Below, piece by piece: positions 8,254 to 44,701 of a DNA stretch of 64,000 bases (the first letter of the stretch is position 1; each line of letters begins with the position of its first letter). The DNA lies in assembly GCA_028865035.1 (NCBI GenBank), contig JAGWLB010000003.1, positions 2,247 to 66,246 of the forward strand, read 5' to 3'. The notes under the pieces are model-generated. The model was not told the origin of the DNA and did no database searches. It worked only from the letters and a program-made list of their open reading frames with translations. The stretch comes from Patescibacteria group bacterium. GTDB taxonomy: Bacteria; Patescibacteriota; Minisyncoccia; Phycocordibacterales; UBA9973. A program made the translations under genes and the position numbers.

Positions 8254-9102
8254 TTAATCTACATATTCTTCATATTCGTACATTATTCCAGGTAAAGTTT
8301 TTTTCGCCTCTTTGTCAATAATGTCTTTTTCCTCATTAGTTATTTTAGATAATTTATAAAGGGCAAATACAACCAAGGATAATACAGAACATATTAGTGC
8401 TAATTCTCCTAATTTGACAGTATTCATTATCATTACTGATTTGAATTGTAGTATTGCGCTTAATAAGCCTACAGTAAAAATATACGGTATTGTTCTGTAC
8501 AAATTGTTGCCATAACAATTCTCGCTGGAAGTAATCCCTTTTTTATTTATTGTCGCTAACATTACAGAGCCTGTTACAATTGGGGCCCAAATATACCAGC
8601 TTTTCCACAATACATATATTTGGTAAAAGAAAGAAACTATAAAAATAGTAATTGCAATTACTATCAATGTCTCATATAACTTTTCTCCTACAACAGCTTT
8701 TTTAAGGGTGTATTCTTTTGCTTGTTCTTTAACAAGTAAAAAGTTGGTTATTATACTCAATACTAAAACAATACCTACTCCTAACCATCCAAATTTATTT
8801 GGATTTGCATGCATTAACATGGTTGCAAAGATTGTTATCTCGAAAGCTAAATTTGCAAGTATTAGTTGCAAAATCAATTTTTTGAAGTAATGATGTTCTA
8901 ATAGTAGCTGAAAGATATTCGCATACAATATAAGATATCCTATAAATGTAAACGAAATTGTAATCAAAAATATAGCAGTGTTGGCTTTTGCTAAAAATAA
9001 TGCTAAAAATATTCCTAATATGTTTAGCATTCCAAATGTCGTAAAAAAGAAATTTATTAATTTTTCTTTAATAGATGGAGTGGGGTTACTAATCTTTTTC
9101 AT
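8254..9102 (-). CDS. Polytopic integral membrane protein, hypothetical
   Basis: 282 aa with about 7-8 hydrophobic helices. No family recognised. Confidence 0.4.
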   Translation of the reverse strand: MKKISNPTPSIKEKLINFFFTTFGMLNILGIFLALFLAKANTAIFLITISFTFIGYLILYANIFQLLLEHHYFKKLILQLILANLAFEITIFATMLMHANPNKFGWLGVGIVLVLSIITNFLLVKEQAKEYTLKKAVVGEKLYETLIVIAITIFIVSFFYQIYVLWKSWYIWAPIVTGSVMLATINKKGITSSENCYGNNLYRTIPYIFTVGLLSAILQFKSVMIMNTVKLGELALICSVLSLVVFALYKLSKITNEEKDIIDKEAKKTLPGIMYEYEEYVD

Positions 9103-17343: not shown

Positions 17344-18315
17344 TTATTTAATTATATTATTTATAACTTTACCTGTTTCGAAAGCAGAAATTATGTTTTT
17401 TGCTGCTAAAACTGACATCATATTTCTAGCATTTTCTCTTGCTGAAGCAATGTGTGGAGTTAACACAACATTAGATAATTTAATAAGCCCAGATGTGATC
17501 TTAGGTTCAAATTCGAATACATCCAACCCTGCTCCGCCGATAGTACCATTCTTAAGTGCATACGATAAAGCTTTTTCATCAATAACTGGCCCGCGCGATG
17601 TGTTGATAATAATGGCTGATTTCTTCATTATCGCCAGTGATTCCTTATTTATAAGATGTTTAGTACTTGGAAGTAATGGTACGTGAAGAGATATAATATC
17701 AGCATTTTTTAATACTTCTAGCATATCCATCTTTTGGGCATTTGTTTCTTGTTCAAGAGCAATATTTTCATTTATATCGCTATAGATAATATTCGAACCA
17801 AAGCCTCTATGTAAAATTTGTGCTACTTTAGATCCTATATCCCCTACTCCTATAAGACCTATTGTTTTACCTTGTATATCTGTACCTATTAATAATTCTG
17901 GATCCCATCCTTTAAATTTACCTTTACGAACAAACTTATCGCCTTCTACTAAACGAGTCGTAAGAGCTAGCATAAGTGCTACAGCGTGTTCTGCTACAGC
18001 AATTCCTGATGTTCCTGGTGTGTTTGAAACTAAAATTCCTCGTTTTTTTATTTCTTCTAAATCAATATTATTGTAACCTACAGAAAAATTGGCAACTACT
18101 TTGATGCTTGGACAAGCCTCAAAAATTTCCTGATCAATACTATCTGTTAAAAATGATATTACTCCATCGTATTGTTTTTTCTTTAATATATTTATCAATC
18201 TTTTCTTTGTAGGAGGTAAGGTATTTAAACCCATATCAAAATTAATACCTTTTTCTTTTAGTAATTTTAATCCTGCATCTGGTATTTTTCTTGTAATATA
18301 TATATTCTTTTCCAT
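17344..18315 (-). CDS. D-isomer-specific 2-hydroxyacid dehydrogenase (glyoxylate/hydroxypyruvate reductase-like)
   Basis: GKTIGLIGVGDIGSKVA NAD-binding fold, and the catalytic Arg/Glu/His arrangement (SRGPVIDE...TPHIAS). 323 aa. Confidence 0.8.
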   Translation of the reverse strand: MEKNIYITRKIPDAGLKLLKEKGINFDMGLNTLPPTKKRLINILKKKQYDGVISFLTDSIDQEIFEACPSIKVVANFSVGYNNIDLEEIKKRGILVSNTPGTSGIAVAEHAVALMLALTTRLVEGDKFVRKGKFKGWDPELLIGTDIQGKTIGLIGVGDIGSKVAQILHRGFGSNIIYSDINENIALEQETNAQKMDMLEVLKNADIISLHVPLLPSTKHLINKESLAIMKKSAIIINTSRGPVIDEKALSYALKNGTIGGAGLDVFEFEPKITSGLIKLSNVVLTPHIASARENARNMMSVLAAKNIISAFETGKVINNIIK

Positions 18316-18324
18316 ATATAATAA

Positions 18325-19113
18325 TTATCCTATTCTAATAATATTACGATTCTTTTCAGCTATTAAAGCAATTTTTTCCATAATCTTAACAGCTTCAAGT
18401 GGGTACTTACCTATTGCTGATTCTTCAGAAAGCATTACTCCATCAGCTCCATCTAATATTGCATAGGCAACATCTGATACTTCTGCTCTAGTCGGCGTAG
18501 GGTTTTCTACCATAGAAAGTAACATTTGAGTTGCAACTATGACCATTTTATTTTGTTTTTTTGCTTCTATGATAATATGATGTTGTACGAAGGGTATTTC
18601 TTCTATTGGAAATTCATTTCCTAAATCTCCACGGGCTATCATTATTGCATCTGATACCTCTATTATTTCGCTAAGATTTTCTACCGCTTCTTTTCTTTCA
18701 ATTTTAGCTATAATTTTCTGATTACCATTATTATCTTTAATAAAATTTCTTAATTCTATAATATCATTTTTAGAACCTACAAATGATAAGGCAACATATT
18801 CAATATTGTTTTTAATGCCAAAAATTAAATCATCCTTATCTTTTTCTGTAAATATTTTAAGATCACCATTGAAGTGATGACCTGATATATCTTGCGTTCG
18901 GGGTCCAGACAAATCTTGAATTATAGGTATACTTACATTATGTTTATACGATTCTTCTCTAATACTATTTATGAATTGTAAATGTTCATCATGGGTACCC
19001 CAAGAAAAATTTAGACGAGCCATACTCATATTATGAGTAATTAGATTAGATAAAATATCTTTATTTTTACTTGCTGGTCCTATAGTTGCTATAATTATTG
19101 TTTTTGATTCCAT
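18325..19113 (-). CDS. pyk: Pyruvate kinase with the A (barrel) domain only; the B lid and C-terminal domain are missing
   Basis: [74 protein letters not shown] are all pyruvate-kinase signatures. The protein is only 262 aa, and [25 protein letters not shown] replaces the ~100-aa B domain. Confidence 0.7.
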
Positions 19114-19119
19114 ATTTTA

Positions 19120-20343
19120 TTATTTACTTATTTTAATTAATCTATTGTACTTAGCATTTCTTTCTTTTGGTCCTATTGCGCCAGCTTTTATACCATAACA
19201 CCCAAAAGCAAACGCTAGGTCACTAATAAAATCATCCATAGTCTCACCGCTTCTGTGGCTAATTATGCATTCTATATTATTATTACGTGCTAATAACATA
19301 GTATTTAGTGTTTCCGTTAATGTGCCTATCTGGTTTGGTTTGATTATTATTCCTTCTATACTTTGCATTTCAATAGCTTTTTTAAGTCTATTTATGTTTG
19401 TTACAGTTAGATCGTCGCCTATTATTTTTGTTTTTGGTAACTCATTTTGTAATAAATTAAAACTTTTATAATCTTCCTCATAGAATGGATCCTCAATAGA
19501 AATTAATGGGTATTTTTTACTAATATTTTTGTAAAGTTCAATCATTTGATTTACATCCCAATCTTTGTCCATAAATCTGTATATATTTTTACTTTGATCA
19601 TAAAAAGAATTTGCAGCTACATCAAGAGCAAACATAACTTTATTTGTATAATTTAATGAATCAACCGCTTCTTTTAGCAAAGAAAGTGGTTCCTCTATAT
19701 TTTCTGTGTTAATAGCTATCCCTCCCTCATCTCCTTTTATTGGAAGACTGCCGTATCTCTTTACAATAATTTCATCCAATTTGTTTTGTATTTCTTTACA
19801 CATTTCAATGTTTAAAACGATATCTTTTTCTTGAGGTACAATATGATATTCTTGAAATGCAAGTTTTGTTTTAGTGTGCTTACCTCCATTTATAAGATTA
19901 AAATACAAAAAAGTATTTGTATGTAATATTTTCATACTAGATAGCCTGCGAAGATATTCATATACTTCAATATTATTCACTTTAGCAGCAGCTTTTGCAC
20001 AAGCAATACTAACTCCAATCATACTGTTACCACCTAGAATTGTTTTCTGTGAAGTTCCATCTAGGTTAATCATTATTTCATCAATTTTTTTTTGATCTTC
20101 AACATCTATACCCACGAGTGATGGTTTGATGATTTCATTTATTTGTTTTATAGCTTTTTCTACTGTACCCTTACCTGTGTTATCATCACGTAACTCATAT
20201 GCTTCATATTTACCAGTACTTGCCCCAGAAGGTACAAGAAAGGTACCTACTGAATCTTCAACATATACCGATACTTTTAGAGTAGGATTATTCCTAGAAT
20301 CATAAATTTGTTCAGCTATTATATCTGTAATTATTTTATTCAT
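19120..20343 (-). CDS. eno: Enolase
   Basis: IYDSRNNPTLKVSVYVEDSVGTFLVPSGASTGKYEA.ELRD plus the conserved metal and substrate-binding residues. 407 aa. Confidence 0.9.
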   Translation of the reverse strand: MNKIITDIIAEQIYDSRNNPTLKVSVYVEDSVGTFLVPSGASTGKYEAYELRDDNTGKGTVEKAIKQINEIIKPSLVGIDVEDQKKIDEIMINLDGTSQKTILGGNSMIGVSIACAKAAAKVNNIEVYEYLRRLSSMKILHTNTFLYFNLINGGKHTKTKLAFQEYHIVPQEKDIVLNIEMCKEIQNKLDEIIVKRYGSLPIKGDEGGIAINTENIEEPLSLLKEAVDSLNYTNKVMFALDVAANSFYDQSKNIYRFMDKDWDVNQMIELYKNISKKYPLISIEDPFYEEDYKSFNLLQNELPKTKIIGDDLTVTNINRLKKAIEMQSIEGIIIKPNQIGTLTETLNTMLLARNNNIECIISHRSGETMDDFISDLAFAFGCYGIKAGAIGPKERNAKYNRLIKISK

Positions 20344-20344
20344 A

Positions 20345-21613
20345 TTATTTTTGAAGTAATATCATAAGATCAGATACATTACTCCCAGTCTCGCCTGTGA
20401 TAATCTGATCCCCGGTTTTAGAAAAAAAGTCGTCTATAGTATTTTTCTCAAGAGTTTCTTTAATAGAAAGATTTTTTTTATTTGCTTTTTCAATTGTAAA
20501 TTTATCTGCAATTGCGCCAGCAGAAATTGAAAGATTATCTATACCATCTGATGCAAATGATGATAAAATATTTTCTGGACCTATCATATCGAGAGAAAGC
20601 ATTGTTAAGTATTCACAACGACCATTTATACCTCTCTCACCTTTTACTATAACTGATGGTTCACCAGCTCCAATAACAACTGTATGTGGTTTAGCGTTTG
20701 TTAGTAATTTATTGATGATAATTTTTGGTTCTTCGTATAATTTAGCGCCAATATTTACTACATTATAACCAAGTTCCTCTGCTTTCTTTTTCATACCTGT
20801 TAAAGCATAACTATTGGTAACGAGTGGAATGTTAAATACTTTTTCAAAATATATATCCTCTTTAGGGGTTTCATTTAAAATAAAATTATATTTTAAATTA
20901 TATTTTAATAGTATAGATTGGGCGTCTTGTACTAGTGATGTGTCTTTATATGTTGGGCCAGAGGCAACTTCTTCATATTTATCACCAGGAACATCGCAAA
21001 ATATAAGAGATGCAACAGTTGCAGGATATAAAAGTTTAGCCAACCCACCACCCTTTAATAAAGATAAATGCTTACGTAATGTATTTAATTCTGTAATATC
21101 CCCTCCTGATTTTAAAAATTCATCATAAAGAATTATCCCTTGTTCGCATTCTAATTTTGGCCAACATAGCATAGATGAACCCCCACCAGATACTACAACA
21201 ATTGCTAAGTCTTTTTCATCTAATTTTTCTGCAAGTTGAGCTAACTCTTCAGATGGAAGAATATTCTCTACTGAAGGTTTTGGATGAGTGCAGATATATT
21301 GTTTTACATATTTGCATTCTCCAAGCTTTTTTTCCATTACAATACCACCCGCAATTTTATCGCCTAGAATCCCTTCAATCGCATTTACAGCAACAGATGA
21401 AGTCTTACCAAAACCTATTATATAAATATGATCATAATCATTTAGATTAAATGTATTATTTTCAATTGTTAGTAGATTGTTATTAAGTTTAAATTTCTTA
21501 TCTATAATGGCTGCTGTGTCTATAGCTTCATAAGCTGATTCCATTATAGTTAGCATATCAGTACGTTCTTTTGTTATAGCCAATTCATCAAAATTTTTGA
21601 TATATCTTTTCAT
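20345..21613 (-). CDS. Glycerate 2-kinase (MOFRL family)
   Basis: IIGFGKTSSVAVNAIE, VVSGGGSSMLCWP and LLKGGGLAKL are MOFRL-type motifs. 422 aa. Lies directly upstream of eno in the same orientation. Confidence 0.7.
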   Translation of the reverse strand: MKRYIKNFDELAITKERTDMLTIMESAYEAIDTAAIIDKKFKLNNNLLTIENNTFNLNDYDHIYIIGFGKTSSVAVNAIEGILGDKIAGGIVMEKKLGECKYVKQYICTHPKPSVENILPSEELAQLAEKLDEKDLAIVVVSGGGSSMLCWPKLECEQGIILYDEFLKSGGDITELNTLRKHLSLLKGGGLAKLLYPATVASLIFCDVPGDKYEEVASGPTYKDTSLVQDAQSILLKYNLKYNFILNETPKEDIYFEKVFNIPLVTNSYALTGMKKKAEELGYNVVNIGAKLYEEPKIIINKLLTNAKPHTVVIGAGEPSVIVKGERGINGRCEYLTMLSLDMIGPENILSSFASDGIDNLSISAGAIADKFTIEKANKKNLSIKETLEKNTIDDFFSKTGDQIITGETGSNVSDLMILLQK

Positions 21614-21659: not shown

Positions 21660-23339
21660 TTATTTATTTATAAATAATTTTGCTAATCGAATATCTTCAA
21701 AAGAAAGTTTGTATCCCTGTTTTTCAAGGATTAATTTAATTGGAGATAACTTACCAATCTCATCATTTTTCAAGGTACGGTTCGCTTTATTTACAATAAT
21801 AATATCTTGTTGTTTAGGTTTAATATGATTAATCTTTGTTTTTGGAAATTTATCTACAATTTGTTCAATATGATAAACTATAGTACTTTTAGTTAAACCC
21901 CTTTCTTTCGCTATCTTGTTAATACTCATACCTTGATTCAATAAATTCATTGTAGTAATTATTGTTGGAATTTTATCTGATGTCTTTGTTTTATTATTAT
22001 TTTTATTAATTACTCCGCCCATACGTACGATAAAAGAATGTTCTAATTTTTCTTGTTCACTTTTACTTAATTTACCAAAGTAGACAAGTTCATTCTGTGT
22101 ACTTTCATTACGAAGTTCTTTGTCGAATTGAAGTACCTTAGGATCTACTCGTAAGGCATCTGGATTAAATCCTACTAATTTTATTCCAGTCATAGTTTTT
22201 ACTCTTGAAAGTGCTACATAACCCATACCATACGCAAATGTATGAGTAAGGTCTATCTCTGCGTTATCAAGTGACATACCCTGACTTTTGTGTATTGTAA
22301 TAGCCCAAGCTAGACGTATAGGAAGCTGACTAATAGAAGCTTTATTTTTACCATTTTCTTCTATTGCCCAAGTTTCTTTGTGGGCGTATATTGTCTTACC
22401 ATTATAGAGCTCTATAATAGGAGTATTATCGGACGGCAGAAAATCTATAACTTTACCTCTAGTACCGTTAACATATCCTTCTTCAAAATTATTTTTTATA
22501 CACATTATTTCAGCTCCAACTTTAAGATGTAATTTCTCACTAGCAAGACAACTTTTTCTTAATATTTCAACTAATGGCTCGGGCCCAGTTGATGACATAT
22601 AAAATACCTTCTCATCAGTTTTTAAATTCGAAAGTTCAGTATTGTTTTCTATATCAACATTCGTATTATGGGTATATAATTTTGTTGGAATAATGTTATT
22701 CGGCAGCTCTGCATTTAATCGATTTTTTAATTGTTCATAATGCAACTCTTCCACTGTGTCACTGCGTATTGCATTTAAAATCGATGTCAGTTCTTCGTCT
22801 ACTTGTCTATGTTGTTCTGTAAGATAACAAATGGCCGGATTCATTATACGCCAAGCTTCACTATATAAGACCATATCTTTCAAATTTGTTTCATTTGAAC
22901 GATTTATAGGAGGTAATTGAAAAAAATCCCCAGAGATAATTATTTGCAAACCCCCAAAAGGTTTATCGCTTCTCTTGAACCTGCGACATACTCGTTCTAT
23001 TATATCTAGTCTATGTGCGTGAAGCATCGATACTTCATCGATAATAAGCACCCTAGCTTTCTCAAAACGTTTCCATAAATATTGTTTACCTTCTAATACC
23101 TCTAGATCATACTCATCTATTTTATCTTTTATACCAATTCCAGCCCAACCATGTATCGTCATGCCATTCATATGAGTAGCAGCTATGCCTGTTGAAGCTG
23201 TAATAGCCACAGGTATATCGTGGTTTTTGAGATATGATATGTATTCATTTAGAAGATAAGTTTTACCACTTCCAGCACTACCAGTAAGGTATACATTTAC
23301 TCCTGTTTTCATAATAGCAAGTGCTTGTTTTTGAGTCAT
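21660..23339 (-). CDS. Pif1-family (RecD-like SF1B) DNA helicase with a C-terminal helix-turn-helix domain
   Basis: Motif I LTGSAGSGKTYLL, motif II IIDEVSMLHA, motif III ISGDFFQLPPI, and a late SQGMSLD. The C-terminal ~100 aa contain SINKIAKERGLTKSTIVYHI, an HTH. 559 aa, 22 bp downstream of lexA. Confidence 0.75.
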   Translation of the reverse strand: MTQKQALAIMKTGVNVYLTGSAGSGKTYLLNEYISYLKNHDIPVAITASTGIAATHMNGMTIHGWAGIGIKDKIDEYDLEVLEGKQYLWKRFEKARVLIIDEVSMLHAHRLDIIERVCRRFKRSDKPFGGLQIIISGDFFQLPPINRSNETNLKDMVLYSEAWRIMNPAICYLTEQHRQVDEELTSILNAIRSDTVEELHYEQLKNRLNAELPNNIIPTKLYTHNTNVDIENNTELSNLKTDEKVFYMSSTGPEPLVEILRKSCLASEKLHLKVGAEIMCIKNNFEEGYVNGTRGKVIDFLPSDNTPIIELYNGKTIYAHKETWAIEENGKNKASISQLPIRLAWAITIHKSQGMSLDNAEIDLTHTFAYGMGYVALSRVKTMTGIKLVGFNPDALRVDPKVLQFDKELRNESTQNELVYFGKLSKSEQEKLEHSFIVRMGGVINKNNNKTKTSDKIPTIITTMNLLNQGMSINKIAKERGLTKSTIVYHIEQIVDKFPKTKINHIKPKQQDIIIVNKANRTLKNDEIGKLSPIKLILEKQGYKLSFEDIRLAKLFINK

Positions 23340-23361: not shown

Positions 23362-23928
23362 TTAGTATTTTCTAATGACGGCCTTTACAACCGCAGTAAT
23401 AGTTAAATAATTTGTTGGATATATTGGTTTAAAATCTTTGTTGGCTGGTTCAAGCCAAACTTTATCTCCAGATTTTTTAAAATATTTCATTGTAAATTCA
23501 CCGTCGACATTTGCTATAACTATCTGTCCGTCTTTTGCTTTATCTGTCTTCTCAACAAGAACCATATCACCATCAGCTATATGAGCATCGATCATTGAAT
23601 CTCCATCAACTTCAAGCATAAAAGTGTTATCTTTTTTGGTTACAAGATAATCATCAAGATTTACTGTATCGTTTAACTCCTCTGTGACATCTGAGGGAAA
23701 TCCTGCTTTTACTAAACCAAGTAATGGAATACTGTCAAAAGATTCATTTGGGATAATTCTTCCTAGATAATCTTTGGTAACCAAACCATTGTCTATAAAT
23801 TTATCAACAAGACGTGCCACAGCATTTTTGGATTTAAATCCGAAAATTTTCATCATTTCCGTGTAAGTCGGCATACGCTTATGTAGTTGGTGGAATGAAG
23901 TTAATTTATTTTTGTATTCGTTATACAT
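23362..23928 (-). CDS. lexA: LexA repressor (S24 peptidase)
   Basis: N-terminal winged HTH (PTYTEMMKIFGFKSKNAVARLVDKF). C-terminal S24 fold with the GDSMIDAHIADGDMVLV Ser nucleophile region and a downstream Lys. 188 aa. Confidence 0.8.
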   Translation of the reverse strand: MYNEYKNKLTSFHQLHKRMPTYTEMMKIFGFKSKNAVARLVDKFIDNGLVTKDYLGRIIPNESFDSIPLLGLVKAGFPSDVTEELNDTVNLDDYLVTKKDNTFMLEVDGDSMIDAHIADGDMVLVEKTDKAKDGQIVIANVDGEFTMKYFKKSGDKVWLEPANKDFKPIYPTNYLTITAVVKAVIRKY

Positions 23929-24322: not shown

Positions 24323-25027
24323 ATGAGAAAATTTTTACTTTCAGTTTTTGTTATATCTGTATTTGGTATATATGCACTATTTGCTAAGTCGGGGAATCCC
24401 TCGACTGTTGTTTTTAATACACAAACTAATTCAAATACGAATAATCAACTAAATAATAATGATTCAAATACTTTACCTATAACGACTCCCCCTTCAACTG
24501 CGCCTACAGTAACCGAGGCCCCAGTTGTAAAAAAAGTCAAGAAAACAACTTGTTCCTGGAAATATTATGGAGGTGATGATGAAGAAAACAGCAGATACGT
24601 ATGTACAACAACATTAGTAGATACTACTCCCACCTCATCAAAAACAACTACAACTACACCTAAACCAACATCAACTCCAACCACTCCTAAAACTGTAGCT
24701 GTTGCTACGCCTCCTCCTGTAGTAAAACCTAAATCAACAAGTGGCTGGAATGATGGTACTTTTACTGGTAATAGTATTGATGCTTACTATGGGTATGTAC
24801 AAGTATCAGCAACTATTTCTGGTGGTCGTCTTACAAATATAAATTTCTTGGATTACCCTCAAGATCGTAGCACATCACTGATGAAAAGCCAGATGGCTAT
24901 GACGATATTAAAATCAGAAGCAATTAATGCTCAAAGTTCTAATGTTGATTATGTATCAGGTGCAACTTATACTAGCGATGCTTTTAATCAATCATTATCA
25001 TCTGCTTTAAGTAAAGCTAGAGTTTAA
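24323..25027 (+). CDS. Exported FMN-binding-domain protein (NqrC/RnfG-like) with a Thr/Pro-rich linker
   Basis: Signal/TM N-terminus and a T/P/S-rich low-complexity linker. The C-terminal domain (GYVQVSATISGGRLTNINFLDYPQDRSTSLMKSQ...VDYVSGATYTSDAF) is an FMN_bind domain with an SGATYT flavinylation motif. Confidence 0.7.
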   Translation: MRKFLLSVFVISVFGIYALFAKSGNPSTVVFNTQTNSNTNNQLNNNDSNTLPITTPPSTAPTVTEAPVVKKVKKTTCSWKYYGGDDEENSRYVCTTTLVDTTPTSSKTTTTTPKPTSTPTTPKTVAVATPPPVVKPKSTSGWNDGTFTGNSIDAYYGYVQVSATISGGRLTNINFLDYPQDRSTSLMKSQMAMTILKSEAINAQSSNVDYVSGATYTSDAFNQSLSSALSKARV

Positions 25028-25031
25028 AGTT

Positions 25032-25778
25032 ATGAAAGACACAAGATTAATAATGGGTATGCCCATAACAGTTGAGATAGTTGATTTACATGTTGAAAAC
25101 CAAGTTCTAGAATCTGTATTTAACTATTTTACTTATATTGATGAAAAGTTTAGTACGTATAAAGAGACAAGTGAAATTATGAAGATAAATCGTGGTGAAA
25201 TAAATGAAAATGATTATAGTGAAGATATGAAAGAAATTTTTCAATTAGCTGAAAAAACAAAAATAGAAACTAATAATTTTTTTAATATAAAAAAGCCAGA
25301 TGGATCTTACGACCCTTCTGGTATTGTTAAAGGTTGGGCTATTCAAAAAGCAAGTGATAATCTGAAAAATAATGGTTATAATAATTTTTGTTTAGATGCC
25401 GGTGGTGATATACAAACTAGTGGTAAGAACAGTAAAGGTGAACCATGGACAATTGGTATTCGTAACCCATTAAATACAAATGAAATTATAAAAATAATAA
25501 ATAATAAAAACAACAAAGGAATTGCGACTTCAGGTACATATATAAGAGGAAATCATATATATAATCCGAATAATAAAGATGATATACTTTCAGAAGTTTT
25601 AAGCTTAACTGTTATTGGTCCAAATATTTACGAGGCTGATCGTTTTGCTACTGCAGCATTTGCTATGGGTAAAGATGGTATATATTTCATAGACAAGCTA
25701 GTCGGATTTGAAGGTTATATGATTGATACTAAAGGTATCGCAACTATGACTAGAGGTTTTGAGGAATACACGCAATGA
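25032..25778 (+). CDS. apbE: ApbE-family FAD:protein FMN transferase
   Basis: MGMPITVEI, DPSGIVKGWAIQKA, LDAGGDIQTSG, ATSGTYIRG and ADRFATAAF are ApbE signatures. 248 aa. Confidence 0.8.
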   Translation: MKDTRLIMGMPITVEIVDLHVENQVLESVFNYFTYIDEKFSTYKETSEIMKINRGEINENDYSEDMKEIFQLAEKTKIETNNFFNIKKPDGSYDPSGIVKGWAIQKASDNLKNNGYNNFCLDAGGDIQTSGKNSKGEPWTIGIRNPLNTNEIIKIINNKNNKGIATSGTYIRGNHIYNPNNKDDILSEVLSLTVIGPNIYEADRFATAAFAMGKDGIYFIDKLVGFEGYMIDTKGIATMTRGFEEYTQ

Positions 25779-25789
25779 ATTAAATATAT

Positions 25790-27322
25790 ATGTTAAATAT
25801 AATAGACAATTTTCTAAACAAAATAACAATGTATCGTCTGGTACTGTACTTTTTGATTTTCTTATTATTACTTGCCACTGGATTTAGCGCTATGGGAATG
25901 CTTCCCTTTAGTCCATTAATGCTCCTATTTGGAACTGCACTTTTGCTAATTATCGGCTGGGCTGTAAATTTTATTTTCTCAGAAGTATTTAATGCGCCTA
26001 CAAACGTAGAATCATTTTATATAACAGCATTGATTCTTGCTCTTATTATTACACCACCACAATCTTTTTCAGATGTTTCTTACTTGATGTTTATATTCTG
26101 GGCAGCACTTTGGGCAATGGCTTCAAAATACATACTAGCAATAGGTAAAAAGCATATATTCAATCCAGCGGCTTTCGCGGTGGCACTAACAGCTTTGACT
26201 CTTGGTCAATCAGCAAGTTGGTGGGTAGGTACGGGTTCAATGTTACCATTTGTATTTGTTGGTGGATTTCTTATTACTCGTAAAATTAGACGTACAGATC
26301 TAGTTCTTTCTTTTATATTTATTTCACTCCTTGTAAGTATTTTTATGCATGCTCATAGTTTTGGAGATATATTTAAATTTGGTAGTCGTGCTATAAAAGA
26401 CTCTCCACTATTTTTCTTTGCTTTTGTAATGCTTACTGAACCACTTACAACTCCACCTACGAAATATCTGAGAATTGGTTATGGAGCATTAGTTGGAGCA
26501 ATTTTTGACCCAATGGTTCATTTAGGTTCAATGTATTCAACACCAGAGCTTGCTTTAATTGTAGGAAATGTATTTTCTTATTTAGTTAGTCCTAAATTAA
26601 AATTAATGTTGCGTTTTAAATCAAAAACACAAATTGCTAAAGATACATATGATTTTTCTTTTGCATCGAGTAAAGATGAAATACCATTTAGGCCTGGCCA
26701 ATATTTCGAATGGACATTACCTCACGAACATCCTGATAGTCGTGGTAATAGAAGGTACTTCACCATAGCCTCTTCTCCCATATCTGAAGAAGTACATATT
26801 GGTGTTAAATTTTACCCTAAATCTAGTAGTTTCAAAAATGCTCTTTTAAAAATGGAAAGAGGTGATAAAATTGTTGCTTCACAACTTGCTGGTGATTTTA
26901 TAATGCCTAGAAATAAACGTATAAAACTTTGCTTTATAGCCGGAGGCATAGGAGTAACTCCTTTTGAAAGTATGATTAATTATATGCTAAAGCGAGGACA
27001 AAAAAGAAATGTTGTAATGTTTTACTCAAATAGAACAGTAGATGATATCGCTTATATGGAAACATTCGAAAAAGCTAGAACAGAACTAGGTATAAAAACG
27101 ATCTATGCTTTATCAGAATTAGATTCAATACCTTCAGATTGGAAAGGTGCACGAGGGTTCATTACTGCGGAAATGATCGCAAAAGAAGTTCCTGATTTTG
27201 AAGATCGCATTTTTTATATATCAGGACCACATTCTATGGTTAGCGCATTTAATGAATCATTGTCTAGAATGGGAGTAAACCAATCTCAGATTATAACTGA
27301 TTTCTTTCCTGGTTTTGCTTAA
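25790..27322 (+). CDS. Membrane oxidoreductase: N-terminal polytopic NqrB/RnfD-like domain fused to a C-terminal FNR-type FAD/NAD(P)-binding module (NqrF-like, no ferredoxin domain)
   Basis: The N-terminal ~270 aa have about 8 TM helices, with HIFNPAAFAVAL and MLTEPLTTPPT resembling the RnfD/NqrB motifs (QNPFNPAM / ILTDPVTASTT). The C-terminus has RPGQYFEW, the RRYFTIASSP FAD-binding R-x-Y-S/T motif, and the FIAGGIGVTPFESM NAD(P)-binding motif. Confidence 0.65.
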   Translation: MLNIIDNFLNKITMYRLVLYFLIFLLLLATGFSAMGMLPFSPLMLLFGTALLLIIGWAVNFIFSEVFNAPTNVESFYITALILALIITPPQSFSDVSYLMFIFWAALWAMASKYILAIGKKHIFNPAAFAVALTALTLGQSASWWVGTGSMLPFVFVGGFLITRKIRRTDLVLSFIFISLLVSIFMHAHSFGDIFKFGSRAIKDSPLFFFAFVMLTEPLTTPPTKYLRIGYGALVGAIFDPMVHLGSMYSTPELALIVGNVFSYLVSPKLKLMLRFKSKTQIAKDTYDFSFASSKDEIPFRPGQYFEWTLPHEHPDSRGNRRYFTIASSPISEEVHIGVKFYPKSSSFKNALLKMERGDKIVASQLAGDFIMPRNKRIKLCFIAGGIGVTPFESMINYMLKRGQKRNVVMFYSNRTVDDIAYMETFEKARTELGIKTIYALSELDSIPSDWKGARGFITAEMIAKEVPDFEDRIFYISGPHSMVSAFNESLSRMGVNQSQIITDFFPGFA

Positions 27323-28299: not shown

Positions 28300-28743
28300 T
28301 TATTTCCTATATTTACGAGTGCGCCATTTGTCGGCTATCTTTACACGGGTTAGTGAACGTTCAAGTTCTGATTCAAAATGTTCAAAATCAACAATCTCTT
28401 TATTTTCAGCTTGCTTGCTGAGTTCTTCTGCCTTCTGCTTCGCCTTAGCTATCATTTCGTCTGTAATATCTGCAACGTGTTCCGCAAAGTCAGCAAGTAT
28501 AGCGCAAGTGGTCACATCACCATCTTTTTTTACTTCAATAAATCCACCGACGACAGCCATCGGTATGTGTTCACCAGAAGAGATAGCAACAACATCACCA
28601 GATGATAGTTCTGCTATAAGTGGGACATGGTCAGCCAAAACTGATATTTCCCCATTAGCCGTTGGGATAGTCACAGCGTCCACCATCTCATCTAAAATGA
28701 GTTTCTCGGGAGTTATTATTTTTAATTGTAATTGTTTTGACAT
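28300..28743 (-). CDS. atpC: F-ATP synthase epsilon subunit
   Basis: LKIITPEKLILDEMVDAVTIPTANGEISVLADHVPLIAELSSGDV. Last gene of the atp operon. Confidence 0.85.
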   Translation of the reverse strand: MSKQLQLKIITPEKLILDEMVDAVTIPTANGEISVLADHVPLIAELSSGDVVAISSGEHIPMAVVGGFIEVKKDGDVTTCAILADFAEHVADITDEMIAKAKQKAEELSKQAENKEIVDFEHFESELERSLTRVKIADKWRTRKYRK

Positions 28744-28758
28744 TACTATTTTAAAAAA

Positions 28759-30132
<1,374 letters not shown>

Positions 30133-30157
30133 TTAATTGATAATGTTTTAATATTTT

Positions 30158-31093
30158 CTAACTTACGCTTGCCATACCGGCACTTATTTCTGATATCTCT
30201 TGGGTGATGCCTGCTTGGCGGGCTTTGTTGAAGACTAATGTCAAATCTCCAATCATCTCCCCTGCGGCTTCACTAGCATTCTTCATCGCGACCATTCTAG
30301 AAGATTGTTCAGAAGCACTCGACTCAAGAACCATCTGGTAAATCTGCATTCTTGTCAGCTTTTCGGCGAGTGACCCTACGAGGGTGCTTATATCTCCGTC
30401 AAACACATAAGGTATATCTTTCGTAGAATCTTTATCTGGTAGAATTTCATTTTTATTATCTTTTTCTTCACCGATGCTTTCAATTAAATCTTTTAACTCT
30501 TGTTTTGATATTGGTAAAAGTTTTCTAACATTCGCACTTTGCGTTAGGGCTGATATAAAATCCGTATAAGCTACATAGACATGGTTGTATTTACCAGCTT
30601 TGTATTCATCTACTATTAGTTTTGAAAGAGGAACAATATCTTGCAAGGAAATATTATTGTCTGGAATCTCTGTAAACGACGCGATAATATTCTGTCCGAT
30701 TCTACGCATAGCCCCATCTCCTTTTTTGCCGACAGTAACAATATCTATCTCAGTGTCTGCCTTAGTATTGGATAGGTTTTTTATCATTGCTAGAGCTTTC
30801 TTGGTCACCTGGCTATTATAAGCTCCACAAAGACCACCATTTGAAGTTATTAACACGAGTAGAGTCTTATTATGATTAGTATGTTCTGTAAAGAATGGAT
30901 GATAAATATCATCAAGGCGACTAGAAAGCGAGGTCAAAAGTTCCCAAGAATATCCAGCATATAGACGAGACGAAAGAGCTCGAGACACGGCCTTCTTCAT
31001 CTTCGAAGCTGCCACGAGCTCCATCGCTTTCGTGATCTTCTTCGTGTTCTTCACACTCTTTATTCGTTGTTTTATTTCTTTTGTACCTGCCAT
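30158..31093 (-). CDS. atpG: F-ATP synthase gamma subunit
   Basis: MAGTKEIKQRIKSVKNTKKITKAMELVAASKMKKA N-terminus and a conserved C-terminal helix. Confidence 0.9.
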   Translation of the reverse strand: MAGTKEIKQRIKSVKNTKKITKAMELVAASKMKKAVSRALSSRLYAGYSWELLTSLSSRLDDIYHPFFTEHTNHNKTLLVLITSNGGLCGAYNSQVTKKALAMIKNLSNTKADTEIDIVTVGKKGDGAMRRIGQNIIASFTEIPDNNISLQDIVPLSKLIVDEYKAGKYNHVYVAYTDFISALTQSANVRKLLPISKQELKDLIESIGEEKDNKNEILPDKDSTKDIPYVFDGDISTLVGSLAEKLTRMQIYQMVLESSASEQSSRMVAMKNASEAAGEMIGDLTLVFNKARQAGITQEISEISAGMASVS

Positions 31094-31102
31094 AAAAAAT
31101 AT

Positions 31103-32605
31103 TTATTTCACAAACCCAGTTTTAAAATCCTCTATTGCTTTTTTAAGAGAAGCTTCACTTTCATCTGTCCACATTTTCTTTTCAATCACATCTTTGTAGA
31201 AATCTTTAGCATTGAGTTGCGTATATTCAAGAAGTCCATCTTCAAATTCTTTAATTTTTTCAACTGGGACGTCATCAAGATAACCTTTGATAAGTGCATA
31301 GAGAATAACTGTCTGGCGTTCTGTAATGACAGGAGAATATTGAGGTTGCTTTAGAACTTCTACGGCTCTTCTTCCACGATCAAGCTGGCGTTTGGTATTT
31401 TCATCCAAGTCTGAACCAAATTGTGAAAAAGCTTCAAGTTCACGGAACTGAGCAAGGTCAAGCTTGAGTGTACCAGAGACTTTTTTCATAGCTTTAATCT
31501 GTGCAGCTGAACCGACACGAGAAACTGAAAGTCCGACGTTTACCGCAGGGCGAATTCCTTTATAGAATAAATCTGTCTCAAGGAATATTTGTCCGTCTGT
31601 GATAGAAATAACGTTAGTAGGAATATAAGCCGAGACGTCTCCAGCTTGGGTTTCAATAATTGGTAATGCTGTAATAGAGCCACCACCGTATTCTTTATTT
31701 TTTCGGCAAGCACGCTCAAGAAGACGTGAGTGCAAGTAGAAGACATCTCCAGGGTACGCTTCACGACCTGGTGGACGTCGAAGCAATAGTGATATCTCAC
31801 GATAAGCTACAGCATGCTTTGACAAATCATCATAGATAATTAGTACGTCTTTACCTTGATCCATAAAGAATTCAGCAATAGAGACTCCAGTATAAGGAGC
31901 GATATATGCAAGCGCTGCCGGTTCTGAGGCTCCAGCTGAAACAATAATTGTATAATCCATAGCGCCTCCTTCCTCTAAACGAGTTTGAAGTTTACGAAGT
32001 TTAGAATCTTTTTGACCGATTGAAACATAAACACAAATCATATCTTGGCCTTTTTGGTTGAGTATTGTGTCTATAGCGATGGCTGTCTTACCTGTCTGAC
32101 GGTCACCAATGATGAGCTCGCGCTGTCCACGACCAATAGGAATCAGTGCATCGATAGCTTTGATACCAGTCGCGACTGGCTGGTCGACACCTTGACGACT
32201 CATAACCCCAGAAGCCACTTTTTCAATAGGAGCTCTCTTATCTGTCTTTATCTGACCTTTTCCATCAATAGGTTCACCCAGAGCATTCAAGACACGACCT
32301 ATTTGAGCGTCTGATACTGGAACAGAAAGAATATTGCCTGTGGCTTTGACTTCGTCTCCTTCTTTAATAGTATGAAAATCTCCCAGAACAATTACTCCGA
32401 CAGAATCTTCATCGAGGTTCAAGGCTACTCCCATTGCTCCCGTAGAGAAGCTGACCATTTCTGATGCTTTTAAATCTGATAGACCAGAGACTCGAGCAAT
32501 ACCATCAAAAACTTCAACAACGTGGCCAACCTTCTCGGCTTTTATGTCGTCTTGGAATTTTTCAATTTGTTTTCTTAAATTTTCTACAATGTGATTTTTG
32601 GCCAT
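31103..32605 (-). CDS. atpA: F-ATP synthase alpha subunit
   Basis: [15 protein letters not shown] Walker A and conserved alpha-subunit motifs. 500 aa. Confidence 0.95.
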
Positions 32606-32606
32606 A

Positions 32607-33014
32607 TTAGTTTGTTGTTAAATAATCTTTTAATTTATCAAGCTTGTTTTTTAGTGTCATATCTATTACTTCATCTCCAACCTCTATCTTTATTCCACCA
32701 AGCAAGCTAGGATCTTCTGTAAATGTAAGTTGGACTGATTTTGCTTTATATCTACTTTTTATTATATTTTCTAGATTTTCAGATTCTATCTTGTTTAGTT
32801 TTTCCTTTGAGCTGATTTTAGCTTCGATAATGCCTTCCCTCTTGTCGATTAATTTATCAATAGCTTCCAGTATTTGAGGTGACTTGCCAAGGAGATGTTT
32901 TTTCGAGAGGAGTATCGTGCTGTTTTTTAAAACATCATCAAGATCTTTCCCAGATTTATCTTTGGATGCTTGGTAGATTGCCGAGGCTATGTTGTTAATA
33001 GAAATTGTTGCCAT
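32607..33014 (-). CDS. atpH: F-ATP synthase delta subunit (short form)
   Basis: 135-aa protein between atpF and atpA with an OSCP-like C-terminal region. Confidence 0.6.
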
Positions 33015-33021
33015 GATATTA

Positions 33022-33516
33022 TTACTTTATTTTTTCAATTCGTTTTATTGTATTTTTGTCGTATGAATCATCACCATGAGATTCCAACAATTTTTCAGTA
33101 GCAGCTACAACAAGTGAAACTATCTCATTTTTTGCTTCCTCGACTATTTTAACTTTTTCGGCATCAAGAGCTTTTTTACCGCTTGCAATCATAGACTCTA
33201 CTTCCTGTTGTGTTTTTTCAAGTATATTTTTTTTATTTTCTTCAGCTTCCTTTTTTCCAGATTGAAATACATTGTGAGCTTCAATACGAGCCTTCGCTAT
33301 AACATCGTCATATTCTTTTTTAGTTTTAGCTAAAAGGTTTGCGTTTTGCTTTGCGTCGTCAAGACCATCTTCGATACGCTTTTGTCTTTCGGCCATTAAT
33401 TTTGATAATGGTTTTAAAGCAAAAAAATATAAAACAGCTAAAACGACTCCAAAGTTTATTGCTTGAGCAATTATTATTTTCCAGTCTATATGAAATGTAG
33501 TTATAAGAGAATTCAT
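33022..33516 (-). CDS. atpF: F-ATP synthase subunit b
   Basis: N-terminal TM helix followed by a long charged coiled coil. 164 aa, in the expected operon position. Confidence 0.75.
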   Translation of the reverse strand: MNSLITTFHIDWKIIIAQAINFGVVLAVLYFFALKPLSKLMAERQKRIEDGLDDAKQNANLLAKTKKEYDDVIAKARIEAHNVFQSGKKEAEENKKNILEKTQQEVESMIASGKKALDAEKVKIVEEAKNEIVSLVVAATEKLLESHGDDSYDKNTIKRIEKIK

Positions 33517-33616
33517 TTGAAATATTATTATTATAATTACTTTTTAATATATCAGCACCTAACTCCTAACTGCTAGCATTTTTATACTAGTAGCTAGATG
33601 TAAGTTGCCAATATGG

Positions 33617-33838
<222 letters not shown>

Positions 33839-33865
33839 TTAATTAATTTATAATGTTTCGACTTT

Positions 33866-34747: not shown

Positions 34748-35069
34748 TTTCCTCTTTTTTGTTTTCTTGATTATCTTTACCTTCAATTTTTTGAATATAA
34801 GATAAAGACATTTTAACAATTACAGCCATAGATATAATAAAAGCAATAATTGTTGATCCTATAAATATCCATGGAGCAGTACCGAAATGATTGTCTAAAT
34901 ATTTACCAATAAACAATGCAAGTATTATAGGAACTGCAACCCAGACAGAAACTCGAGCGAACATTATGAGTGCTTGCTGCCATGAAGATTGATCTTTTTT
35001 ATTGTTTTGCATAAAAAGAAAGTGGCTCAAAGCCGTGCATACTGTACCAAAAAATTGCGATATTTTCAA
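34731..35069 (-). CDS. atpI: AtpI/AtpZ-like small membrane protein preceding atpB
   Basis: 112 aa with 2-3 TM helices. Placement and size are typical of atpI/atpZ. Overlaps the atpB start. Confidence 0.5.
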   Translation of the reverse strand: MKISQFFGTVCTALSHFLFMQNNKKDQSSWQQALIMFARVSVWVAVPIILALFIGKYLDNHFGTAPWIFIGSTIIAFIISMAVIVKMSLSYIQKIEGKDNQENKKEENGKSN

Positions 35070-41736: not shown

Positions 41737-41774
41737 ATTTAATAATTGTACCATATGTGATACAATTATTAAAT

Positions 41775-44698: not shown

Positions 44699-44701
44699 AA
44701 T

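What the first reader, a model, noticed from the sequence alone, without database searches (positions are those of the whole stretch)
18325..19113. Pyruvate kinase with the barrel domain only; the B (lid) and C (allosteric) domains are absent
All hallmark PK A-domain motifs are present, but the protein is 262 aa. A ~15-residue linker ([16 protein letters not shown]) replaces the ~100-aa B domain, and nothing follows the barrel. The adjacent genes are intact, so this does not look like a pseudogene. It may be an unregulated mini-PK or a PEP-utilising enzyme with altered function.
Basis: partly seen in the sequence, partly recalled or inferred. Interest (0 to 1): 0.55.

Follow-up and report, generated by a model that had tools for sequence, protein, structure and literature searches.

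The report
Lidless mini pyruvate kinase family
This 262-residue protein is a pyruvate kinase reduced to its catalytic barrel, with no mobile lid and no regulatory domain; it belongs to a conserved family in tiny-genome Patescibacteria that always sits beside the enzymes making its substrate, so a lid thought to be needed for catalysis may be dispensable.

Summary
The ORF at 18325-19113 (minus strand, 262 aa) is a true pyruvate kinase (PK) A-domain barrel (Pfam PF00224 E=2e-79; TIGR01064 above its cut-off; AF2 model pLDDT 92.8, TM 0.90-0.92 to solved PKs). An 18-residue hairpin replaces the ~100-aa B (lid) domain, and only about 12 residues follow the barrel, so there is no C domain. It is not a pseudogene or a mis-assembly. 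The gaps to the neighbouring genes are 6 and 9 nt, and no B or C remnants occur anywhere in the 64 kb. More than 120 relatives of 257-284 aa exist in Patescibacteria (Paceibacteria, Saccharibacteria). All PEP, Mg2+ and proton-relay residues are invariant in 129 members. The changes cluster on the nucleotide side: rabbit-numbering H77->W, R119->Q, the K206 equivalent not conserved, plus a new invariant Arg72 and His79 in the hairpin. The gene always lies in a module with enolase, a 2-phosphoglycerate-forming enzyme (glycerate kinase or dPGM) and usually a D-2-hydroxyacid dehydrogenase, and is occasionally fused to these partners. Best reading: an active, unregulated, probably K+-independent PEP-to-pyruvate phosphotransferase with a remodelled acceptor site. 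Eight literature searches found no description of it. It is a new variant of a known kind; activity is untested.

The parts
18325..19113 (-). mini pyruvate kinase, 262 aa: a complete (beta/alpha)8 A-domain barrel with no B domain and no C domain
   Evidence: AF2 model pLDDT 92.8 / pTM 0.91 with 8 strands and 8 helices. Foldseek TM 0.90-0.92 and rmsd 1.0-1.8 A to solved PKs.
18850..18900 (-). residues 72-88: the hairpin linker that replaces the ~100-aa B domain, carrying family-invariant Arg72, Gln74 and His79 (plus Phe81, Gly83)
   Evidence: R72 129/129, Q74 127/129, H79 129/129. AF2 predicts strands 72-75 and 78-81 at pLDDT ~68. GPRVQ aligns with GPKIR of full-length relatives. MAFFT aligns xGHHFGG with the PykF return strand K156-GVNLPG162; this register is not reproduced by hmmalign.
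19000..19017 (-). residues 33-38, motif R-L-N-F-S-W: Arg33, Asn35 and Ser37 (rabbit R72, N74, S76) are kept; rabbit His77 is replaced by Trp38
   Evidence: R 129/129, N 129/129, S 128/129, W 127/129. H in 97% of full-length PKs, W in 95% of the B-less set and 0% of full-length PKs.
18910..18915 (-). Asp67-Leu68 (rabbit D112, T113->L): the Leu113 signature of the K+-independent PK branch
   Evidence: signature as described in PMC4284704 and PMC8835810.
18697..18705 (-). Lys137-Ile-Glu139 (PykF K220/E222; rabbit K269/E271): catalytic Lys and Mg2+ ligand
   Evidence: both 129/129.
18625..18630 (-). Gly162-Asp163 (PykF G245/D246; rabbit D295): PEP and Mg2+ ligands
   Evidence: both 129/129.
18529..18531 (-). 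Thr195 (PykF T278; rabbit T327): proton-relay residue
   Evidence: 129/129.
18421..18429 (-). Ser229-Glu230-Glu231 (PykF S312-G-E314; rabbit S361/E363): proton relay kept; Gly->Glu230 is a family signature
   Evidence: S and E both 129/129. E230 in 93% of the B-less set.
19120..20343 (-). enolase, immediately upstream in the same operon; it makes PEP
   Evidence: TIGR01060 410 bits, cut-off 300. Adjacent to the mini-PK in L002, L007, L008, L009, L087, L091 and L092.
20345..21613 (-). MOFRL/DUF4147 glycerate kinase, first gene of the module; expected to make 2-phosphoglycerate
   Evidence: Pfam DUF4147 + MOFRL. Best NCBIfam hits are glycerate 2-kinase, below their cut-offs. Same position in L008 and L091.
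17344..18315 (-). D-isomer-specific 2-hydroxyacid dehydrogenase, last gene of the module; substrate not assignable
   Evidence: Pfam 2-Hacid_dh and 2-Hacid_dh_C. Best NCBIfam hit is glyoxylate reductase, 318 bits, below the cut-off of 455. Linked to the mini-PK in L002, L004, L007, L008, L086 and L091.

Best explanation
The gene encodes a functional but drastically reduced pyruvate kinase: the (beta/alpha)8 A-domain alone. It most likely still transfers the phosphoryl group of PEP, made by the enolase encoded just upstream, to a nucleoside diphosphate. That would give pyruvate plus NTP as the last step of a compact 2-phosphoglycerate -> PEP -> pyruvate module. SHOWN: the PEP site, Mg2+ site and proton-relay site are intact and invariant across the family. 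The architecture is conserved in many Patescibacteria. The gene is embedded in a conserved module with enolase and a 2-PG-forming enzyme. INFERRED: (1) Without a C domain there is no effector site and no C-C tetramer interface, so the enzyme is constitutive and at most an A-A dimer. (2) It descends from the K+-independent branch (Leu113 plus a basic residue at 117, here an invariant Arg72), so it should need no monovalent cation. (3) Instead of a closing lid, a 12-residue beta-hairpin formed by the two retained hinge strands borders the active site. Its invariant Gln74/His79 pair, together with Trp38 in place of His77, takes over part of the ADP-positioning role of the lost Arg119, Lys206 and B-domain Asp. 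Affinity and rate for the nucleotide are probably lower, which a slow-growing reduced-genome symbiont could tolerate.
For: Homology and fold: PF00224 E=2e-79; TIGR01064 326.7 > 306.4 bits; 55% identity to PykF 167-332; AF2 pLDDT 92.8; all top 50 PDB fold hits are PKs, TMq about 0.9. Catalytic core: R33, N35, D67, K137, E139, G162, D163, T195, S229 and E231 are invariant or nearly so in 129 sequences. 50 of 261 aligned columns are >=90% conserved with the same residue in B-less and full-length PKs. Mean barrel identity within the B-less set (0.53) equals that within full-length PKs (0.51), so constraint is not relaxed. Real family: 119 of the best 120 hits are 257-284 aa, and 15 of the best 150 50%-identity representatives are B-less. 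Context, down to 45% identity: GCK-Eno-miniPK-2HADH in the window; Eno-miniPK-2HADH in L002; miniPK-2HADH in L004; 2HADH-GCK-Eno-miniPK in L008 and L091; 2HADH-dPGM-miniPK-Eno in L007 and L009, and dPGM-miniPK-Eno in L092. The dPGM assignment rests on TIGR01258 at 161-173 bits against a cut-off of 81.7. In-frame fusions occur with dPGM, enolase and glycerate kinase. The window also encodes FBP aldolase, GAPDH and an F-type ATP synthase, so this is a glycolytic organism. K+-independence signature: L68/R72, and the nearest full-length relatives have QDLxGPK[IV]R, with the literature rule from PMC4284704 and PMC8835810.
Against: No enzymology exists. Residues that contact the nucleotide in canonical PKs are lost or changed. 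Arg119->Gln74 occurs in 98% of members, whereas Arg is 100% conserved in full-length PKs. The Lys of the return strand, which binds the ribose hydroxyls in S. pneumoniae PK, is not conserved, and the B-domain Asp that holds the second Mg2+ is gone. In canonical PKs the active site is a cleft between A and B, and full occupancy goes with lid closure, so efficient ADP phosphorylation without a lid is unproven. The hairpin is modelled at only pLDDT ~68. I had no coordinates, so I could not check that His79 and Arg72 point into the site. Whether these genomes carry a second, full-length PK could not be checked beyond the 64-kb window. Arg at position 117 rather than Lys has not, to my knowledge, been tested for K+ independence.
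Confidence: 0.68

Rival explanations
1. Altered chemistry. The barrel still binds PEP and Mg2+ and releases pyruvate, but the phosphoryl acceptor is no longer a freely bound ADP. Candidates are water (a PEP phosphatase that pulls the pathway without conserving energy), another small molecule, or a protein or own-chain histidine (the invariant His79) in a PPDK/Enzyme-I-like relay.
For: The only conserved-in-both-but-different switches in the barrel include the two nucleotide-side residues H77->W and R119->Q. The K206 equivalent is variable, and a new invariant His appears on the flexible hairpin. B-domain contacts to the ribose and the second Mg2+ are absent. Some members are fused to or adjacent to dPGM, an enzyme that works through a phosphohistidine.
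Against: R33 and N35 (rabbit R72, N74) of the acceptor-side motif are invariant. The family is nested among ordinary PKs at ~50% barrel identity with no sign of accelerated divergence. Discarding the PEP phosphate would waste the main substrate-level phosphorylation step in organisms with few other ATP sources. The window operon has glycerate kinase rather than dPGM, so dPGM priming cannot be the general role.
Confidence: 0.17
2. The barrel is only one part of an enzyme. A partner protein (enolase, dPGM, glycerate kinase or the dehydrogenase), or a second mini-PK subunit, caps the active site in trans and supplies lid function, possibly with substrate or ADP/ATP channelling.
For: Tight operon linkage and occasional in-frame fusions with three different pathway partners. 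Glycerate kinase consumes ATP and PK regenerates it, so physical coupling would make sense.
Against: The fusion partners differ and occur in either order (dPGM::PK, PK::dPGM, PK::Eno, GCK::PK), which argues against one specific capping partner. Each fusion was seen on a single short contig. No ORF resembling a B or C domain exists in the window. In L004 the mini-PK is adjacent only to the dehydrogenase.
Confidence: 0.08
3. Decaying pseudogene or assembly/frameshift artefact of a normal ~470-aa pyk gene.
For: Length is 56% of a normal bacterial PK. NCBI annotated the identical protein as 'hypothetical protein'.
Against: The ORF is clean, with 6- and 9-nt intergenic gaps. No B or C remnants occur in any frame of the window. 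More than 120 independent sequences from many samples have the same boundaries and invariant catalytic residues. The model is a confidently folded, complete barrel.
Confidence: 0.01
4. Member of a different PEP/pyruvate-binding TIM-barrel family (HpcH/HpaI aldolase, citrate lyase beta, PEP mutase type) that merely resembles PK.
For: Its size (~260 aa, barrel only) is typical of those families. There are weak Pfam and NCBIfam hits to HpcH_HpaI and GarL.
Against: HpcH_HpaI scores 18.7 bits against a cut-off of 25, and GarL 16.3 against 406, while PK scores 267-329 bits. Identity to PykF over the second half of the barrel is 55%. All top 50 structural neighbours are PKs. Full-length PKs give the same weak HpcH hit.
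Confidence: 0.01

Closest known systems
Canonical bacterial pyruvate kinase of the K+-independent branch (Lys117/Leu113 cluster; E. coli PykA / P. aeruginosa PykA type, PDB 6qxl)
   Same: Same A-domain barrel (TMq 0.92, rmsd 1.8 A to 6qxl_J). Same PEP, Mg2+ and proton-relay residues. Leu at position 113 and a basic residue at 117; the nearest full-length relatives carry QDLxGPK[IV]R. Same glycolytic role implied by context.
   Different: No B lid (18 residues instead of ~100) and no C domain, so no effector site and no C-C tetramer interface. Arg rather than Lys at 117. Arg119->Gln, His77->Trp, and a new invariant His79.
Short A+B pyruvate kinases without the C domain (~336-355 aa; NCBIfam NF005234/PRK06739 type, model length 352)
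   Same: A natural PK that has already lost the allosteric C domain. Twelve such representatives occur among the 150 nearest 50%-identity clusters.
   Different: They keep the complete B lid (81-87 residues in the B region). The mini-PK scores only 222.6 bits against NF005234's cut-off of 564. They do not group specifically with the B-less proteins in the NJ tree.
   Same: 55% identity over PykF 167-332 and 32% over residues 3-117. Deletion boundaries mapped on it: the B domain lies between Pro70 and Glu172 of PykF, and the barrel ends near residue 340.
   Different: PykF is K+-dependent type (Thr67/Glu71), FBP-activated, tetrameric and 470 aa.
PEP-binding barrels of PPDK / PEP synthase / PTS Enzyme I (own knowledge, not tested here)
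   Same: A lidless PEP-binding barrel in which a histidine on a mobile element receives the phosphoryl group. This is the conceptual analogue for the His79-relay reading.
   Different: No sequence or fold hit to these families was seen. The mini-PK is clearly PK by descent. The analogy is mechanistic speculation only.

Membership tests
Pyruvate kinase (EC 2.7.1.40; Pfam PF00224, TIGR01064) | A-domain (beta/alpha)8 barrel matching the family model above curated cut-offs | tested here: met
   PF00224 267.5 bits (cut-off 30). TIGR01064 326.7 bits (cut-off 306.4). AF2 model plus Foldseek TMq 0.90-0.92 to PKs.
Pyruvate kinase (EC 2.7.1.40; Pfam PF00224, TIGR01064) | PEP, Mg2+ and proton-relay residues (rabbit R72, K269, E271, D295, T327, S361, E363) | tested here: met
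   All present in the window protein and invariant in 129 family members.
Pyruvate kinase (EC 2.7.1.40; Pfam PF00224, TIGR01064) | B (lid) domain inserted between beta3 and alpha3 of the barrel | tested here: not met
   18 residues instead of 101 between Pro71 and Glu90. 8-11 residues in the B region against 81-87 in B-containing PKs. No B-like ORF in the window.
Pyruvate kinase (EC 2.7.1.40; Pfam PF00224, TIGR01064) | C (alpha/beta, effector-binding and tetramerisation) domain, Pfam PF02887 | tested here: not met
   No PK_C hit. The protein ends about 12 residues after the last barrel helix. No C-like sequence in the window.
Pyruvate kinase (EC 2.7.1.40; Pfam PF00224, TIGR01064) | Nucleotide-side residues (rabbit H77, R119, K206, and the B-domain Asp holding the second Mg2+) | tested here: not met
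   H77->W (98%), R119->Q (98%), the K206 equivalent is variable, and the B-domain Asp is absent. Roles of these residues.
Pyruvate kinase (EC 2.7.1.40; Pfam PF00224, TIGR01064) | Catalyses PEP + ADP -> pyruvate + ATP | not testable with these tools
   Only indirect evidence: conserved operon with enolase and a 2-PG-forming enzyme.
K+-independent PK cluster (Leu113 / Lys117 signature) | Leu at 113 and Lys at 117 (rabbit numbering) | tested here: inconclusive
   Leu68 in 126/129, and position 117 is an invariant Arg rather than Lys. The nearest full-length relatives have L113/K117. Rule from PMC4284704 and PMC8835810. The behaviour of Arg at 117 is not known to me.
Short C-less PK (NCBIfam NF005234, PRK06739) | A+B architecture of ~350 aa scoring above the model cut-off | tested here: not met
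   222.6 bits against a cut-off of 564; the B domain is absent.
HpcH/HpaI aldolase / citrate lyase beta barrel family (PF03328) | Score above Pfam's gathering threshold | tested here: not met
   18.7 bits against a cut-off of 25. GarL 16.3 against 406.75. No such structure among the top 50 fold hits.

The most novel reading that the evidence does not exclude
The lidless barrel is not a simple ADP kinase. The invariant His79 on the flexible hairpin, next to invariant Arg72 and Gln74 and to a PEP/Mg2+ site that is otherwise untouched, would accept the phosphoryl group of PEP as a phosphohistidine. It would then pass it on to ADP, or directly to a partner such as the catalytic histidine of the adjacent or fused dPGM. 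That would make this a PK-derived, Enzyme-I/PPDK-like phospho-relay that evolved within the PK family.
Probability: 0.1. Interest if true: 0.85.

Novelty: new variant of a known kind. Interest (0 to 1): 0.6.

Why it matters
Textbook PK is a three-domain enzyme. Its active site is a cleft between the barrel and a mobile lid, and its flux control depends on the C domain. A natural, conserved PK that lacks both domains yet keeps every PEP-side catalytic residue is a ready-made minimal system. It lets one ask what the lid contributes to phosphoryl transfer and nucleotide binding, and how a barrel-only enzyme positions ADP. It also bears on metabolic reconstructions of Patescibacteria/CPR, a very large fraction of bacterial diversity. 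These genes are variously called 'pyruvate kinase' or 'hypothetical protein', and whether the step conserves ATP changes the predicted energy budget of these symbionts. A ~29-kDa unregulated, probably K+-independent PK could also be a useful part for ATP-regeneration systems. If the acceptor has changed, it would be a new reaction within a classic enzyme family.

Tried and rejected
1. Hidden full-length gene: tblastn with PykF whole, B domain and C domain found nothing beyond the ORF, and the intergenic gaps are 6 and 9 nt. Rejected.
2. Other barrel family: the scores are far below cut-offs. Rejected.
3. Literature: eight full-text searches with different wordings and five papers read gave no description of a natural B-less PK. 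The 'truncated PK' hits were an engineered knockout and a deletion of the Bacillus extra C-terminal domain.
4. Single origin: an NJ tree on 232 barrel columns puts all 23 B-less sequences plus one full-length protein (P0203, paired with P0127) in one clade. Bootstrap support is weak, 45/200 for the 22 core members and 3/200 for strict monophyly. Monophyly is therefore unresolved by the tree; only the shared GPR...(G/S)H motif and identical boundaries argue for it.
5. Homology of the second hairpin strand to the B-domain return strand KGVNLPG: MAFFT gives that register but hmmalign to a full-length profile places it inconsistently. It is kept as tentative.
7. Model coordinates are not exposed, so no distance checks for His79 or Arg72 were possible.
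8. Taxon names for the divergent representatives: the cluster look-up returned none.
9. Substrate of the linked 2-hydroxyacid dehydrogenase: the best NCBIfam hits are all below cut-off (glyoxylate reductase, PGDH, VanH-type D-LDH) and differ between loci. Not assignable.
Only four B-less loci (L006-L009) were returned, so family size in genomes is not measured.

Full report
OBSERVATION. The ORF at 18325..19113 lies on the minus strand, starts with ATG and encodes 262 aa. It matches the Pfam pyruvate kinase barrel PF00224 at E=2e-79 in two stretches. It exceeds the curated cut-off of the PK equivalog TIGR01064, 326.7 against 306.4 bits, despite its length. Against solved structures, residues 3-79 align to the first ~75 residues of PK. 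Residues 85-255 align to PykF 167-332, or to 188-358 of 3t05. Identity to PykF 167-332 is 55%. Between the conserved Pro71 and Glu90 there are 18 residues where PykF has 101. Only about 12 residues follow the last barrel helix.

NOT AN ARTEFACT OR PSEUDOGENE. Enolase ends 6 nt before the start codon, and the next gene starts 9 nt after the stop. tblastn with PykF whole, its B domain and its C domain finds no other piece in any frame of the 64 kb. An identical protein is deposited from a Patescibacteria group MAG on a 75.9-kb contig. The best 120 database relatives, at 64-100% identity, are 257-284 aa except for one fragment of 234 aa. In an exhaustive search of 1.84 billion cluster representatives, 15 of the best 150 carry the same B-less module at 45-55% identity: 10 stand-alone proteins of 258-269 aa and 5 fusions. 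Named members come from Paceibacteria/Paceibacterota, Saccharibacteria and unclassified Patescibacteria. Other Patescibacteria have normal 472-547-aa PKs. The mini form is therefore derived within the lineage.

ANATOMY. An AlphaFold2 model built from 67 family sequences is confident (mean pLDDT 92.8, pTM 0.91). It shows a complete (beta/alpha)8 barrel. The linker is predicted as a beta-hairpin (strands 72-75 and 78-81) at lower confidence, about 68. All top 50 Foldseek hits in the PDB are pyruvate kinases, with query-normalised TM 0.87-0.92. The closest are chains whose B domain is disordered, such as 6qxl_J and 5wrp_C at rmsd 1.0-1.8 A.

Across 129 family members the PEP, metal and proton-relay residues are invariant. 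These are Arg33, Asn35, Lys137, Glu139, Gly162, Asp163, Thr195, Ser229 and Glu231; Ser37 and Asp67 are each 128/129.

The linker is not a random loop. Arg72 and His79 are 129/129, Gln74 is 127/129, Phe81 is 119/129 and Gly83 is 114/129. The first strand, GPRVQ, aligns without gaps to GPKIR of the nearest full-length relatives. That makes Arg72 the equivalent of position 117 and Gln74 the equivalent of Arg119 (rabbit numbering). MAFFT aligns the second strand, xGHHFGG, with the B-domain return strand K156-GVNLPG162 of PykF. hmmalign does not reproduce this register consistently, so I treat it as tentative. If it is right, the deletion removed the body of the B domain and kept its two hinge strands. 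His79 would then sit two residues after the Lys206 equivalent, on the same face of that strand.

WHAT CHANGED AND WHAT DID NOT. I compared 41 B-less sequences with 133 B-containing relatives. 50 of 261 aligned columns are >=90% conserved with the same residue in both groups. Only four columns are conserved in both groups but with different residues: His77->Trp, Arg119->Gln, Val->Ile (PykF 256) and Asn->Tyr (PykF 300). Mean barrel identity within the B-less set (0.53) is no lower than within full-length PKs (0.51). Constraint is therefore not relaxed.

The specific remodelling lies on the nucleotide side of the active site. In S. pneumoniae PK the nucleotide lies in the cleft between A and B. 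The Lys of the return strand binds the ribose hydroxyls, the following Gly amide bridges to the beta-phosphate, and a B-domain Asp helps hold the second Mg2+ (bioRxiv 10.1101/2024.06.25.600556). Lid closure accompanies full occupancy (PMC4374775). In the mini-PK the Lys equivalent is variable, the Asp is gone and Arg119 is Gln.

K+ SIGNATURE. The literature rule is that Glu117/Thr113 marks K+-dependent PKs and Lys117/Leu113 marks K+-independent ones (PMC4284704, PMC8835810, PMC5501398). The mini-PK has Leu68 at position 113 and an invariant Arg72 at 117. Its nearest full-length relatives have QDLxGPK[IV]R. I infer descent from the K+-independent branch and probable K+ independence. Arg rather than Lys at 117 has not, to my knowledge, been tested.

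CONTEXT. In the window the operon reads glycerate kinase (MOFRL/DUF4147) - enolase - mini-PK - D-2-hydroxyacid dehydrogenase, all on the minus strand with gaps of 1-9 nt. The same set recurs in the following loci.
- Eno-miniPK-2HADH: L002.
- miniPK-2HADH: L004.
- 2HADH-GCK-Eno-miniPK: a Saccharibacteria MAG, L008, and the most divergent member, P0235 at 45% identity, in L091.
- 2HADH-dPGM-miniPK-Eno: L007 and L009. dPGM-miniPK-Eno: L092.

The His_Phos_1 partner is a dPGM-type mutase: TIGR01258 scores 161-173 bits against a cut-off of 81.7. In-frame fusions exist in several orders: dPGM::miniPK, miniPK::dPGM, miniPK::enolase, GCK::miniPK and GCK::enolase::miniPK. Each of the four I looked up is a single ORF but sits on one short contig, so I count the fusions as supportive only.

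The mini-PK is thus always linked to enolase and/or a 2-phosphoglycerate-forming enzyme, exactly where a PEP-consuming step belongs. The window also encodes class II FBP aldolase, GAPDH, a PfkB kinase, split transketolase, Rpe, RpiB and an F-type ATP synthase. The organism therefore has ordinary central carbon metabolism.

MECHANISM. Best explanation (confidence 0.68): an active, constitutive, barrel-only PK that converts enolase-derived PEP to pyruvate and phosphorylates an NDP. It has no allosteric control and no C-C tetramer interface, because the C domain is absent. It probably needs no K+. The retained hinge hairpin (Arg72, Gln74, His79) and Trp38 would partly replace the nucleotide contacts of the lost lid.

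The steps that are shown are homology, fold, the intact PEP/Mg2+ site, family conservation and pathway linkage. The steps that are inferred are the acceptor, K+ independence, oligomeric state and the role of the hairpin.

The main rival (0.17) is that the acceptor has changed, to hydrolysis, another molecule or a His79 phospho-relay. It is motivated by the fact that the remodelling targets precisely the nucleotide side. A trans-acting cap from an operon partner (0.08) is not excluded. The pseudogene/artefact and other-barrel-family readings are refuted.

COMPARISON AND NOVELTY. By descent and catalytic core this is a PK. By architecture it fails two of the three canonical domain criteria and the nucleotide-side residue criterion (see the membership table). 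C-less A+B PKs of ~340-355 aa exist: NCBIfam NF005234, and 12 of the 150 nearest representatives. They keep the lid. Eight full-text searches and five papers read yielded no description of a natural B-less PK. Databases call these proteins 'pyruvate kinase' or 'hypothetical protein' without comment. I rate it a new variant of a known kind, with interest 0.6. It would surprise PK enzymologists and offers a natural minimal system, but nothing here shows activity, and the most likely function is the ordinary one.

LIMITS. I had no coordinates for geometric checks, no AFDB search, no whole-genome census for second PKs, weak phylogenetic resolution of a single origin and no taxon names for the divergent representatives.

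Noticed in passing
window 24323-27322 (+): Three adjacent genes: an FMN_bind protein (234 aa), an ApbE flavin transferase (248 aa), and a 510-aa protein combining an NQR2/RnfD/RnfE-like membrane part with a C-terminal NAD_binding_1 oxidoreductase domain. This is an unusual fused Rnf/Nqr-like redox module for a Patescibacteria genome.
   Followed up: no
window 39130-40848 (-), next to FBP aldolase at 40864-41802 (-): A 572-aa FAD-linked oxidase (FAD_binding_4 + FAD-oxidase_C). Its best NCBIfam hits are D-2-hydroxyglutarate dehydrogenase YdiJ (N-terminal half only) and GlcD, all far below cut-off. It could oxidise a D-2-hydroxyacid such as D-lactate or glycolate and so connect to the 2-hydroxyacid dehydrogenase of the mini-PK operon.
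   Followed up: partly
P0123 (L086), P0125 (L087), P0130 (L088), P0128 (L089), P0132: In-frame fusions of the B-less PK module with dPGM (both orders), enolase, glycerate kinase, and glycerate kinase + enolase (1092 aa). Each of the four looked up is a single ORF on one short metagenomic contig. They could be real multi-enzyme proteins or stop-codon or assembly errors.
   Followed up: partly
P0138, P0147, P0163, P0173, P0176, P0178, P0199, P0205, P0243, P0246, P0247, P0253: Twelve of the 150 nearest cluster representatives are A+B pyruvate kinases of 336-393 aa with no C domain. C-domain loss is therefore recurrent among PKs. Their taxonomy and regulation were not examined.
   Followed up: no
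window 21660-23339 (-); L002 1732-3477; L004 3190-4872: A PIF1-family helicase with a C-terminal HTH_40 domain (559-581 aa) lies upstream of the enolase/mini-PK module in the window and in two relatives at 66-68% PK identity. This is conserved synteny of unknown meaning.
   Followed up: no
window 28300-34819 (-): The F-type ATP synthase operon (alpha, beta and a subunits identified) has clearly higher G+C (0.39-0.42) than the rest of the window (0.28-0.35).
   Followed up: no
window 1219-2859 (-), 8254-9102 (-), 47642-48406 (-): ORFs of 546, 282 and 254 aa have no Pfam match at E<=1e-5. The 254-aa one sits between RpiB and GAPDH inside a sugar-phosphate gene cluster.
   Followed up: no
window 43700-45571 (-): Transketolase is split into two genes (N-terminal TPP-binding 289 aa; pyrimidine-binding + C-terminal 332 aa), followed by Rpe and RpiB.
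   Followed up: no
window 3104-4318 (+) and 23362-23928 (-): A DinB/IMS-family translesion polymerase and a LexA-like S24 peptidase (188 aa) are present, which suggests an SOS-type response in this reduced genome.
   Followed up: no
L004 10665-12409 (-): In a relative's contig, a Zot-like protein (PF05707) and a REP_ORF2-G2P replication protein lie about 4 kb downstream of the mini-PK. This looks like an integrated inovirus-like element in a Patescibacteria genome.
   Followed up: no
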